3,434 nt of DNA from a virus. Its lineage: Duplodnaviria > Heunggongvirae > Uroviricota > Caudoviricetes. The stretch lies in the IMG/VR virus record IMGVR_UViG_2541047436_000025; one strand, given 5' to 3'. Of the stretch, positions 1 through 3,000 are shown in pieces; position 1 is the stretch's first letter, and each line of letters starts with the position of its first letter. The position numbers are program-made.

Positions 1-3000
1 CATGTATTCTCTATCGCCATTTTTTGCTCTGCGGCGATCTACAGATTCTCCGAAACGCTTCTCCATAAATAATTCATAGGCTGCTCGTTCATCCGATACT
101 GCTGCCAGTGATGCCAGCGCAATCCGTGCCAGCTCTTCCGCTTCTTCTGCTGGAAGCACAACGTTGCTACCCGGTCCGTATGTTTCGCGCCAATGCTGGA
201 TTGTCAGCAGTCGATCTTTGGTAATAGTGGTCATAGCTATTTCACCTTAATCTCAACATTTCGCAGCTTTAGCTCTACTGGCATGTCTGACTTTCCTGTT
301 AATGCTAATGCGAGATTTTCTGGAGTAATGAGAGCAGTTATTGTTTTCCCCATCGCCAGACGAATAATCATTCGTATTTCGCGATCGTCACATGCTCCTG
401 GTCGAACAATTGATATTTGTCCGTTCATCTCACTCTCCTTTGATGCGAATGCCAGCGACGCGTAATGCGTGTTCTAGGTCAATCAGGTAAAGCCAACTGC
501 CATTTTCTTTAGGTATCATGACATGTCGCTCATCTGCATTTATCGGGTGTCCATATCGAAGGTCGTAGCGAGTCGGTAATTGAACTTCCCGCGCTTCCAG
601 TTCAGCAATACGCTTGCTCCCATCAGAGATAACGCCTTCGTAATACTCACGCTGCTCGTTGAGTTGTGATTTTGCTTCTTCCAGTCCATCCAGCAAATCA
701 GCGATAATATCCGCTTCCCGATGACGGATGTGACGCTTAAACGCAGCAAGAGCCGCATCACAATCCCGTTCAGCATTTGGGCTGTCCGGGGTAGCCTGAT
801 ACCACGCCAGCGTCGATTGATAGTTTTGTGCTGCCTCACGCAGTGCCTGATAGTCAATCTTGCCCACTGGCTGCCTCCTTTGCCGGGATTTCTAACTTTT
901 GAGTGGTTGTATCAAATTCAAACAACTTAACCACGTCATCAAACAGGACATAATCACCATCAGGATCTTCAGTCATATCAGCGCCACAATCCTGACCGCA
1001 CGAGTCGCAACCTCCCATATCAAGCTCGTATCGCTTCAGGTTCGCGATATTTGATAAATTCAGCGCCAGTATAGCCAGATCATTAACCTCGTCTGCGATA
1101 TACCCTGCACCATGTCCATACATTTCAATGCGGGATATGATTTCTTCTACACGTTGTTTTGTGATCGTCATTTTTCTCTTCACTCCGATATACAAGGATT
1201 ACTACACCCCCTCTGCTGATTGCGCGAGCTGGATCCCCTGGTTCCATGCCGTCAATACCGAAGGCTTCGAAAAATGCATCTATTGCCTTCTGGCGTTGCT
1301 CCTGCTTACGGCGTTTATTCCATTTTTTCATGAACAACAGTGACAGCCATCGTCCGCTGCAGAACATGATGTAGAAATAACCAAGGAGCGCTAGGCCGGT
1401 GTTCAGGGCTGTATCGATCGTTATCGTGGTGTTGATGTTCACTTCACACCTCTCTGTTTGTTGATAAGTTCAATATCCTGCTGGCAACTGGCGCAAGCTC
1501 TGCATCCACGAACAGCCAGGCGTCGCCGCTCATCTATCGGATCGCCACACTCGCAACAATGAGTAGCAGATGGGGCATTACTATCGGATTTGTATTTTTG
1601 CAGGGAGAGATTGCGCTGCAATTCTTCGATTTCAGCGGCGTTGTCGATGATATCTGCCATTTTCCTTTCCTTCAGGCATGAAAAAAGGAGCCGAAGCTCC
1701 TTTGGTTTTAGAATTCGAATTGCCTTGCCCGCAGGCTTTTCAGCATTGGTCTGGCCCGCTGAACTACGAAACTCGACTGGTCAAGCCGTGCCGCCTCTCT
1801 CAGTAGCACATCTCTGTTCTTCGTCACCATGTAGATGGTCTCAAACGCAATGTCATACAGCTTGTTCGTGTATGAGGAGTTCAGCTCTTTCATGATCGGA
1901 TACAGGTGTTTGCTGAGGTCCTGGGCTTTTTCCATCCAGAGTTGCATGTAGCAGAGGAGGATGATTTCCTCGTCTGTGAATTGTTGCTGTGGTTCTGCTT
2001 GTGCCGACTGCATGTTGCGAAGTTTCTTTTCGCACTCGATGAAGTATCTGCGTATCTGTCGGCCTTTTTCGTTACGCTCTACCATCGCCGTTTCTTTGGC
2101 TGTATCGAGGGTAAGGTGGTAGTCTTTTTTCCCTCGCCCATAACCTATTTCCCGTTTCTGGGAAATAGCTATATAGTCCTGATTTTCAACGAATCCGTAC
2201 TCTTCAATACGTTCTGTAATCCACGATGCAAAGCGTTTACCTACTCCAAGAAAAGTATGTAAATCACGGGCATTAACGAGAAGAGTGGTTTCGTTGGCGA
2301 TAGTGCCGTTGAATACGGGGATGCGTTGACTGGTCATGATGACCTCCTTATTTGTTTAGTTTATAACCGCCAGTTAGTAGCTGGCGGTCGGGTGTCAACT
2401 GAGCCAAATAAGAAGCTCTGGGCATATTCCCCTTGCGGGTGTTGTATTACGCCTCTCCACCCGACCTTTGTACGGATGTAACTATGCCAAATTGCAGGCA
2501 TAAAAAAGCCGCAAAGCTATCGGGTGCGGAGACCGCTTATTTGTTCAGTGCGGTCAGTATGCGATAGCTCTGGAGGATTTGTCAATCAGCGGAATATTGA
2601 TGAACGGGTAACGGTAAATGCCTCATCCAGAAAATTAACGCAAATTCGCATCGCAAACTTGCGTTAATTATCTGAAATATCAAGTTAAATCCCCTTAAAT
2701 GTTTGGGGCACTATTGGGGCAAAATGTGGTTGTTTGGGGCACTATTGGGGCAAAATGTGGTTGTTTGGGGCATATTTGGGGCAAAAAAGAACGTATAAAG
2801 AACGGTGTAAAATTGATTTCTTCATGGTCAAAATGAGGTGTAACAGATTGAAAAATATATGCTCTTGGACGATCTTCGGTAATTCTGTGTTTTTAATGCT
2901 TCATGGTTTCAATATGTCCGTACATGGAATAATAAAGCACCAGAACTTTAGCCATTTCTAACCACTCCTCGTGTTATCTCTATTCCGTAGCGATTCGCTA

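What the first reader, a model, noticed from the sequence alone, without database searches (positions are those of the whole stretch)
854..1171. Small, strongly acidic Cys-cluster protein of unknown family: candidate anti-defence protein
The 105-aa product is about one fifth Asp or Glu (roughly 22 acidic against 8 basic residues by my count) and has a compact CDSCGQDCG motif. Small acidic proteins in phage early accessory blocks are often DNA mimics or inhibitors of host restriction or defence systems. I recognise no family, so this is speculation from composition and context.
Basis: inference. Interest (0 to 1): 0.45.

Follow-up and report, generated by a model that had tools for sequence, protein, structure and literature searches.

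The report
Acidic two-module phage accessory protein
The ORF is a real, widespread and strongly conserved early phage gene of unknown function. Its acidic cysteine-containing half is a small portable domain that is also found as the tail of Ea22-type phage proteins, and nothing yet shows that it blocks host defences.

Summary
Window 854-1171 (minus strand) encodes a 105-aa protein with 22 Asp/Glu, 8 Lys/Arg, pI 4.1 and CDSCGQDC at residues 55-62.

It is a real gene. It matches PHROG 3126 over its full length (unknown function), dN/dS is about 0.14, and the identical protein occurs on more than 1000 contigs, mostly E. coli O157:H7 prophages. Homologues about 80% identical occur in virulent Salmonella and E. 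coli siphophages.

It is not a three-Cys cluster. Across 69 divergent relatives only C55 and C62 are (nearly) invariant, and C58 is Cys or Phe.

The protein has two portable modules. The N-terminal part is a helical hairpin (1-42). The C-terminal part is a 40-residue acidic beta/alpha mini-domain (43-84). That mini-domain also occurs alone, fused to DUF551 or a dNTP pyrophosphohydrolase, and as the C-terminal domain of genuine Ead/Ea22 proteins.

In most loci an Ea22-type gene follows with the same 14-nt overlap, and natural fusions of the two exist.

Best reading: an Ea22-type interaction domain, possibly metal-assisted, that targets an unknown partner.

The parts
854..1171 (-). ORF105 coding sequence (105 aa plus stop). 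It belongs to PHROG 3126 and is identical to RefSeq WP_000156547.1 'hypothetical protein'.
   Evidence: dN/dS 0.14
1046..1171 (-). N-module, residues 1-42 (MTITKQRVEEIISRIEMYGHGAGY...LALNLSNI). It is predicted to be a helix-loop-helix hairpin. It also occurs on its own as the N-terminus of other mosaic proteins, for example in front of DUF551.
   Evidence: AF2 H5-18 and H26-43, pLDDT about 70; N-only matches P0187, P0195, P0197 and others
920..1045 (-). C-module, residues 43-84 (LKRYELD..CDSCGQDCGADM.EDPDGDYVLFDDVVKL). This is an acidic beta-beta-beta-alpha mini-domain and the conserved, portable unit.
   Evidence: 69 representatives aligned; AF2 E47-51, E65-68, H77-83 with block pLDDT 83-88; found stand-alone, at C-termini, in Ead_Ea22 and DUF551 proteins
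986..1009 (-). Cys loop CDSCGQDC (residues 55-62). C55 and C62 are conserved; C58 alternates between Cys and Phe.
857..919 (-). Variable, probably disordered tail (residues 85-105). Its last codons overlap the start of the next gene.
   Evidence: pLDDT below 50 for residues 87-105; length and sequence vary among homologues
854..867 (-). 14-nt overlap between the end of ORF105 and the GTG start of the downstream Ea22-like gene. This is a translational-coupling and mosaic junction.
   Evidence: the same 14-nt overlap with an Ea22-type start occurs in 46 of 73 scorable loci and in phage PhiR12_1
430..867 (-). Downstream Ea22-like gene (145 aa, Pfam Ead_Ea22). Its C-terminal 50 residues occupy the same position as the ORF105 C-module in other Ea22 proteins.
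1125..1171 (-). 47-nt overlap between the end of the upstream DUF4752 gene and the start of ORF105. A GGAG lies at 1183-1186, 11 nt before the ATG.
   Evidence: the same arrangement is annotated in RefSeq O157 genomes

Best explanation
ORF105 is an expressed, selectively maintained early accessory protein of enterobacterial phages (PHROG 3126). It is assembled from two independently mobile modules.

The N-terminal 42 residues form a helical hairpin. That hairpin also heads other mosaic accessory proteins and probably serves for self-association or docking.

Residues 43-84 are the functional end. They form a 40-residue acidic mini-domain of three short strands and a helix. Its loop carries an invariant Cys-x6-Cys pair and conserved Asp/Glu positions (D56, D61, D/E65, E68, D69, D71, D/E73, D/E79).

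The same cassette is used as the C-terminal domain of some genuine Ea22 proteins (Ead N-domain, coiled coil, then this module). It is also fused to DUF551 or to a dATP/dGTP pyrophosphohydrolase.

My inference is that it works as the interchangeable C-terminal domains of Ea22-type proteins are thought to work. It would act as a small protein-binding domain that uses its acidic Cys loop, possibly with a divalent metal shared between two copies, to engage a basic surface on a host or phage partner early in infection. It would act alongside the Ea22-type protein that is translationally coupled to it.

Shown: the gene is real, its module structure, its fusion partners, its linkage to Ea22, and the conservation pattern.

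Inferred: that it binds a protein, any metal involvement, and the physiological outcome (host takeover, the lysis-lysogeny balance, or counter-defence).
For: - Real gene under purifying selection: PHROG 3126 at E 2.5e-66, dN/dS median 0.14, the identical protein on more than 1000 contigs.
- Two modules: matches to profile positions 1-38 only or 41-88 only in many representatives, and P0130 and P0134 carry both modules separated by 45-100 inserted residues.
- Portability of the C-module: it occurs stand-alone at 53-60 aa (P0219, P0230), fused to DUF551 (P0153, P0179), fused to PF04447 (P0165), and as the C-terminal domain of Pfam-positive Ead_Ea22 proteins P0148, P0161 and P0166.
- Same position as the neighbour's C-terminal domain: BLASTP of P0166 against the window Ea22-like protein gives E 3e-7 over 69 residues. 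With the core only, the hhalign score is 14.3 against 7.4 +/- 1.8 for column shuffles, and 2 of 300 shuffles reach it.
- Linkage to Ea22: about 53 of 73 scorable loci have an Ea22-type gene immediately downstream, 46 of them with the same 14-nt overlap. Read-through fusions of ORF105 with Ea22, with or without DUF551, exist (P0121, P0135, L067).
- Conservation: C55 in 68/69, C62 in 69/69, R47, Y/F48, L50, D56, A64, M66, G72, Y74 and the listed acidic positions.
- Literature: Ea22 proteins are mosaic, with portable, dimeric and mostly acidic C-terminal domains that may bind an unknown host protein (PMC10834534).
Against: - No partner, metal or phenotype is known.
- The claimed homology to the neighbouring Ea22 C-terminal domain is only suggestive. 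hhalign gives 2-7% probability, and much of the BLAST score comes from the shared coiled-coil and AGI flanks.
- The adjacency to Ea22 could reflect a shared recombination junction rather than shared function.
- Full-length homologues in virulent siphophages such as Bas80 are not followed by a recognisable Ea22 gene. The protein can therefore act without Ea22, and its role cannot be confined to lysogeny.
- The structure model is only of medium confidence (mean pLDDT 69, Cys loop about 67), and I could not inspect the coordinates.
Confidence: 0.4

Rival explanations
1. Anti-restriction or anti-defence protein. The acidic surface would mimic DNA or otherwise block a host nuclease or defence complex such as type I R-M, BREX or RecBCD.
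For: - Net charge -14 and pI 4.1, the most acidic protein of the operon.
- It lies in early accessory regions next to known counter-defence genes. The anti-RecBCD gene abc is 2-5 genes upstream in Sf101 and PhiR12_1.
- It is kept at about 80% identity in both temperate and virulent phages, which fits a function useful in any infection.
- It is fused in some proteins to a dNTP pyrophosphohydrolase domain.
Against: - The conserved acidic residues are position-specific and packed into a loop of about 25 residues, not spread along an elongated DNA-like surface.
- The domain is used as a tail on coiled-coil Ea22 proteins.
- It is absent from three catalogues of anti-defence or accessory genes.
Confidence: 0.2
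2. Metal-binding or redox-sensing mini-domain. Two copies of the Cys-x6-Cys loop, or the loop plus a C-terminal CxxC, would share a Zn or Fe ion. Alternatively the two cysteines would form a reversible disulfide that reports oxidative stress.
For: - C55 and C62 are (nearly) invariant in a cytoplasmic protein, flanked by conserved Asp.
- Ea22 C-terminal domains are reported to be dimeric.
- Jersey-like phage variants add a tail HKHHFINGTCVEC with a CxxC and three His.
- Several fusion partners carry zinc ribbons (P0146, P0163, P0168, P0226).
- exo-xis genes have been linked to H2O2-driven induction of Stx prophages (abstracts).
Against: - Only two conserved ligands per chain. C58 alternates with Phe and H20 is not conserved, so there is no intramolecular four-ligand site.
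- No match to any zinc-finger or Fe-S family.
- This could not be tested with a multimer model.
- This reading is compatible with the best explanation rather than exclusive of it.
Confidence: 0.15
3. Dedicated partner of the downstream Ea22-type protein (assembly factor, inhibitor or antitoxin-like regulator) with no target of its own.
For: A 14-nt overlap with an Ea22-type start occurs in 46 loci, and natural fusions exist.
Against: - The downstream Ea22 proteins are conserved only in their first 15 residues or so and are otherwise very diverse.
- The gene occurs without Ea22 in virulent phages.
- The C-module is fused to unrelated domains.
Confidence: 0.1
4. Chance ORF, or the shadow of a gene on the other strand.
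For: It overlaps both neighbouring genes (47 nt and 14 nt). Short plus-strand ORFs exist at 721-930 and 899-1054.
Against: dN/dS is 0.14 in this frame. There is a full-length PHROG match and a conserved domain across 69 clusters below 50% identity.
Confidence: 0.01

Closest known systems
Ead/Ea22 family (Pfam PF13935; lambda Ea22, Stx-phage Ea22 variants V1-V3)
   Same: - Same genomic neighbourhoods: the ea / exo-xis type early accessory blocks.
- Same modular logic: an association module followed by a small portable C-terminal domain.
- The ORF105 C-module is literally the C-terminal domain of some Pfam-positive Ead_Ea22 proteins (P0148, P0161, P0166).
- The gene is translationally coupled to an Ea22-type gene.
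   Different: - ORF105 has no Ead_Ea22 N-domain and no coiled coil (no Pfam hit; helical hairpin instead).
- Its C-module is unrelated in sequence to the solved lambda Ea22 C-terminal domain (hhalign 0.2%).
- It is not among the lambda, V1, V2 (DUF551) and V3 C-terminal domain types described in PMC10834534.
PHROG 3126 (phage protein family of unknown function)
   Same: Full-length, end-to-end match covering 1-105 of 105 positions at E 2.5e-66.
   Different: None. The family carries no functional annotation and no paper mentions it.
DNA-mimic anti-restriction proteins (T7 Ocr, ArdA) and lambda Ral
   Same: Small size, strongly negative charge, early expression in accessory regions.
   Different: - No sequence or fold similarity.
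- The acidity is concentrated in one short conserved loop-rich domain.
- It contains a conserved Cys pair.
- It occurs as a fused tail on larger proteins.
Mosaic DUF551 proteins of lambdoid prophages (for example CPS-53 YfdS, Ea22 V2)
   Same: Many DUF551 proteins start with the same N-module and/or carry the same C-module upstream of DUF551 (P0153, P0179, P0187, P0135). A DUF551 gene lies two genes downstream in the O157 version of this block.
   Different: ORF105 itself has no DUF551 domain.

Membership tests
PHROG 3126 | Significant full-length match to the family HMM | tested here: met
   E 2.5e-66, 221 bits, residues 1-105 against profile positions 1-105 of 105
Ead/Ea22-like (PF13935) | Match to the Ead_Ea22 N-terminal/coiled-coil model above the 27-bit cut-off | tested here: not met
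   No Pfam family at E <= 1 for ORF105, whereas the neighbouring 145-aa protein scores 51 bits
Ead/Ea22-like (PF13935) | Central coiled coil that drives oligomerisation | tested here: not met
   The AF2 model shows a two-helix hairpin (H5-18, H26-43) and no long coil. Oligomeric state is not testable here.
Ead/Ea22-like (PF13935) | Small portable C-terminal domain downstream of the association module | tested here: met
   The C-module occupies the C-terminal domain slot in Ead_Ea22-positive P0148, P0161 and P0166. Homology to the window Ea22-like C-terminal domain is only suggestive.
DNA-mimic anti-restriction proteins (Ocr, ArdA, Ugi-like) | Sequence or fold similarity to a known mimic | tested here: not met
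DNA-mimic anti-restriction proteins (Ocr, ArdA, Ugi-like) | High negative charge density | tested here: met
   21% Asp+Glu, net charge -14, pI 4.1
DNA-mimic anti-restriction proteins (Ocr, ArdA, Ugi-like) | Relief of restriction or defence in vivo, or binding to a nuclease | not testable with these tools
   Needs plating or transformation assays
Lambda Ral restriction-alleviation protein | Sequence homology to Ral | tested here: not met
   hhalign probability 1.5%, 7 aligned columns
Cys4 / Cys3His zinc fingers and zinc ribbons, or Cys-cluster Fe-S proteins | Three or four conserved metal ligands within one chain | tested here: not met
   Only C55 (68/69) and C62 (69/69) are conserved. C58 is Cys in 44 and Phe in 19. 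H20 is lost in the KIIYRHEMGLNSDVT variant.
Known anti-phage defence proteins (PADLOC) | Match to any PADLOC model | tested here: not met
   No families at E <= 1

The most novel reading that the evidence does not exclude
The 40-residue acidic Cys-x6-Cys module would be a previously unrecognised, freely shuffled effector domain. Both temperate and virulent enterobacterial phages would attach it to different scaffolds (helical hairpin, Ea22 coiled coil, DUF551, dNTP pyrophosphohydrolase) to neutralise one conserved host factor. That factor could be a DNA-binding defence or restriction component, bound through a metal-bridged acidic loop. If so, this is a new anti-defence or host-takeover domain family, and it would give the first mechanistic handle on the Ea22 / exo-xis accessory proteins.
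Probability: 0.15. Interest if true: 0.65.

Novelty: new variant of a known kind. Interest (0 to 1): 0.3.

Why it matters
The protein is carried by most E. coli O157:H7 genomes sampled and by many Salmonella and E. coli phages, including phages considered for therapy, yet it has no annotation.

Recognising its acidic half as a discrete portable domain has three uses. It gives a defined, small target of 40 residues with two cysteines for biochemistry. It links the protein to the poorly understood Ea22 / exo-xis accessory genes, which influence lysogeny and Stx-prophage induction. It also explains part of the mosaic structure of these proteins.

It would matter more if a partner or an anti-defence phenotype were found. 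As it stands, this is well-characterised viral dark matter rather than a surprise.

Tried and rejected
- Pfam, NCBIfam and PADLOC scans of ORF105 found nothing.
- PDB sequence searches with two profiles found nothing meaningful; the only hit was OppA at E 1.3.
- The first AF2 run with 24 close homologues gave a poor model (pLDDT 55). The second run with 44 diverse sequences gave pLDDT 69.
- I suspected lambda Ral from memory because of its Cys-rich stretch and the EDGKYV motif. hhalign rejected this at 1.5% probability. The lambda Ea22 C-terminal domain was rejected at 0.2%.
- A calcium-binding (EF-hand-like DxDxDG) reading of EDPDGDY was considered and dropped. The first and last ligand positions are not conserved, and Asp-Gly is a common hairpin turn.
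- Two giant repeat proteins in the exhaustive search (P0167, P0193) are spurious cumulative hits to Ig-like repeats.
- A profile search with the most divergent modules found only 8 more small hypothetical proteins.
- The search for related loci with the module alignment failed for lack of a conserved stretch. The degenerate DNA pattern found only 3 species representatives in genome contigs: two Aeromonas and one low-coverage Novosphingobium contig that is probably contamination.
- Literature searches for phrog_3126, WP_000156547, ECSP_1439 and CDSCGQDCG each found 0 papers. The motif is absent from the supplements of three accessory-gene or anti-defence studies.
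Full report
**1. Observation.**
The minus strand of window 854-1171 encodes MTITKQRVEEIISRIEMYGHGAGYIADEVNDLAILALNLSNIANLKRYELDMGGCDSCGQDCGADMTEDPDGDYVLFDDVVKLFEFDTTTQKLEIPAKEAASGQD. It is the most acidic of the six proteins of the operon. Half of its acidic residues lie in residues 43-84.

The start is ATG 1171, because every homologue begins MTITKQR. A GGAG lies 11 nt upstream. The ORF overlaps the upstream DUF4752 gene by 47 nt and the downstream Ea22-like gene by 14 nt.

**2. It is a real, conserved gene.**
- It matches PHROG 3126 (unknown function) over all 105 positions at E 2.5e-66.
- There are 248 close homologues in the 5.8-billion-protein collection, all unnamed.
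- The identical sequence is recorded on more than 1000 contigs. It is RefSeq WP_000156547.1, 'hypothetical protein'.
- dN/dS against 49 homologues with dS above 0.1 has a median of 0.14 and a range of 0.09-0.22.
- Pfam, NCBIfam and PADLOC give nothing.

**3. Context.**
The window is the end of a lambdoid prophage next to ymdF. Positions 1168-3434 are 99.6-99.8% identical to the right end of Stx2 phage Sp5 / VT2-Sakai at the wrbA site. The minus-strand operon runs Ant, TraR/DksA, DUF4752, ORF105, Ea22-like, a 63-aa PHROG 1222 protein, then a gene that runs off the left edge.

Positions 1-1426 are 99.2% identical to a different O157:H7 prophage. There the block DUF4406 - DUF4752 - ORF105 - Ea22-like - 63 aa - DUF551 - hok sits between replication gene P and the antiterminator Q, which is a nin-type position.

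The two similarities overlap inside DUF4752. None of 5426 complete E. coli genomes holds the window in one piece. The window is therefore either a recombinant at that shared gene or an assembly chimera. Either way the ORF is unaffected.

In P22-like phages (PhiR12_1, Sf101, IME10) the homologue lies in the early-left ea region, a few genes beyond the anti-RecBCD gene. Homologues 75-85% identical also occur in virulent siphophages of about 46 kb that infect Salmonella and E. coli (Vi II-E1, LPST10, KFS-SE2, Bas80). There they sit in a run of small unannotated genes. 'Early accessory block' is therefore a fair description, but the gene is not tied to lysogeny.

**4. Anatomy: two portable modules.**
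An exhaustive HMMER search of 1.84 billion cluster representatives found 117 hits. Many match only profile positions 1-38 and many match only positions 41-88. P0130 and P0134 have both parts separated by 45-100 inserted residues.

The N-module is predicted to be a helical hairpin (H5-18, H26-43). The C-module is predicted as strands 47-51, 65-68 and 74-75 plus helix 77-83, with block pLDDT of 83-88. The last 19 residues are predicted disordered.

The C-module occurs in several settings:
- alone, as 53-60 aa proteins (P0219, P0230);
- at the C-terminus of unrelated proteins;
- upstream of DUF551 (P0153, P0179);
- upstream of a dATP/dGTP pyrophosphohydrolase domain (P0165);
- as the C-terminal domain of proteins that score as Ead_Ea22 in Pfam (P0148, P0161, P0166), directly after the coiled coil and before an ...AAGIxLxVE tail.

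Divergent stand-alone copies sit among DNA-metabolism genes of environmental phages. The motif also occurs in Aeromonas genomes.

**5. The 'Cys cluster'.**
In 69 representatives covering the C-module, C62 is invariant and C55 is present in 68. Position 58 is Cys in 44, Phe in 19 and something else in 6. Both states of position 58 occur among near-identical genes. H20 disappears in a common N-module variant (KIIYRHEMGLNSDVT).

The conserved signature is [KR]-R-[YF]-x-L-x(3-5)-C-D-x(5)-C-x-A-[DE]-M-x-E-D-x-D-G-[DE]-Y-V-x(3)-[DE]-V. This is a Cys-x6-Cys pair embedded in position-specific acidic residues, not a three- or four-ligand site within one chain.

A metal site is still conceivable. It would need ligands from a second copy, from Asp side chains, or from the HKHH...CxxC tail that the Jersey-like phage variants add.

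**6. Link to Ea22.**
I scored 73 loci that carry the motif and have a downstream ORF. About 53 have an Ea22-type gene (M-x-K/E-I-D/N-Y-Q-A-L-R-E...) immediately downstream, and 46 of these show exactly the 14-nt overlap seen in the window. The downstream Ea22 proteins diverge completely after about 15 residues. Read-through fusions of ORF105 with Ea22, with or without DUF551, exist (P0121, P0135, L067).

The window's own Ea22-like protein ends ...KRIAELEAREVQLPTRYDLRYGHPINADERHVMIPKENGSWLYLIDLEHALRVAGIRIKGE. This aligns with ...KRIAELEARTVTVKLPRYDLDQSDCDSCGQDCGADMSEEPDGDYVLLSDVLERLAAAGINLTVEG of P0166 at E 3e-7. With the flanks removed, the profile-profile score is 14.3, against 7.4 +/- 1.8 for column-shuffled controls, and 2 of 300 shuffles reach it. 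Positional equivalence is therefore shown. Common ancestry of the two cores is only suggestive.

The literature describes Ea22 proteins as mosaics of a short N-domain, a coiled coil and interchangeable, dimeric, mostly acidic C-terminal domains. Those domains may bind an unknown host protein. Lambda Ea22 favours lysogeny by an unknown mechanism (PMC10834534; PMC7093339). The ORF105 C-module is not one of the C-terminal domain types listed there.

**7. Tests of the anti-defence / DNA-mimic idea.**
- PDB sequence searches: nothing.
- Foldseek against PDB: best E 0.48.
- Foldseek against BFVD: best E 0.019, unnamed. A few hits of 25-38% identity over about 40-50 residues are probably module homologues, one of them loosely named 'putative ssDNA binding protein'.
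- Lambda Ral, which I suspected from memory, is unrelated.
- No paper mentions the family, the accession, an O157 locus tag or the motif. The motif is absent from the supplements of three accessory-gene or anti-defence studies.

These results do not refute an anti-defence role. They only show that there is no positive evidence and no resemblance to known mimics.

**8. Most likely mechanism.**
I consider ORF105 a minimal, stand-alone version of the Ea22-type design. An association or docking module (here a helical hairpin instead of a coiled coil) presents a small acidic interaction domain. The invariant Cys pair and acidic loop would form the contact surface, possibly organised by a divalent metal shared between copies. 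The target would be a basic surface on a host or phage protein engaged early in infection.

Its presence in virulent phages argues for a general host-takeover or counter-defence use rather than a purely lysogeny-related one. The module structure, fusions, linkage and conservation are shown. Binding, metal involvement and physiological outcome are inferred. Confidence is 0.4. The rivals are an anti-restriction mimic (0.2), a metal or redox sensor (0.15, compatible with the main reading), an Ea22-specific partner (0.1) and a chance ORF (0.01).

**9. Novelty and verdict.**
The sequence family is already catalogued (PHROG 3126, RefSeq hypothetical) but entirely uncharacterised. What is new here is the dissection into two portable modules and the correction of the Cys motif to Cys-x6-Cys. 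The third new point is the finding that the acidic module is an undescribed C-terminal domain type of the Ea22 mosaic family, with a conserved translationally coupled junction to Ea22 genes.

I rate it a new variant of a known kind, with interest 0.3. It is a solid, testable piece of phage dark matter, common in O157:H7, but it is not surprising to a specialist without a phenotype.

Noticed in passing
window 2378-2466 (minus strand): Rfam sRNA-Xcc1 (RF02221) match covering the full model at 69 bits (gathering score 53), E 1e-11. It lies in the 5' leader just upstream of the Ant antirepressor gene at the prophage end.
   Followed up: no
window 2700-2792: Three tandem 31-nt repeats (TGTTTGGGGCACTATTGGGGCAAAATGTGGT; two identical copies and one 71% copy) near the prophage/chromosome junction. 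They may be arm-type integrase or other protein-binding sites.
   Followed up: no
window 2628-2674 and 2556-2585: A 22-nt inverted repeat (86% complementary, 3-nt spacer) lies just upstream of a minus-strand sigma-70-like promoter (TTGACA, 18 nt, CATACT). It looks like an operator/promoter pair for the Ant operon.
   Followed up: no
window 1168-1426 (DUF4752 gene): The window is a mosaic. Positions 1168-3434 match the Sp5 / VT2-Sakai right end at 99.8%, and positions 1-1426 match a nin-type block of another O157:H7 prophage at 99.2%. The combined arrangement is found in none of 5426 complete E. coli genomes. It is either a recombinant at the shared DUF4752 gene or an assembly chimera.
   Followed up: partly
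L067 (IMG/VR), P0121, P0135: Single polypeptides that fuse ORF105 to the downstream Ea22 gene, in two cases continuing into DUF551. They could be genuine fusions, or frameshift or sequencing errors at the 14-nt overlap.
   Followed up: partly
L010 3884-4231 (phage Bas80), L018, L095, L014: Homologues in virulent Jersey-like siphophages are 115 aa and end in SNHKHHFINGTCVECLKSE. This adds three His and a CxxC, a possible extra metal-binding tail.
   Followed up: no
L013 2384-3001 (phage Sf101 gene 0022), L025: A 205-aa protein consists of full-length ORF105 fused to a 100-residue Trp-rich C-terminal domain (...GWTPEHDDQY...FDWPWTPEWWKP...) that has no Pfam match.
   Followed up: partly
L014 (Novosphingobium silvae NODE_63, 1000 nt, coverage 0.9): A low-coverage 1-kb contig in a Novosphingobium assembly carries a Jersey-like phage copy of the gene. 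This is most likely contamination rather than a true host.
   Followed up: no
window 3261-3434 (plus strand): ymdF (KGG-repeat general stress protein) marks the chromosomal flank. Phage homology ends near 2905-2918, which is the prophage boundary.
   Followed up: partly
window 237-428 (minus strand): A 63-aa ORF (PHROG 1222, unknown function) follows the Ea22-like gene in all O157 copies. It has a weak partial match (E 6e-6) to the C-terminal end of a PHROG annotated as DNA methyltransferase.
   Followed up: no
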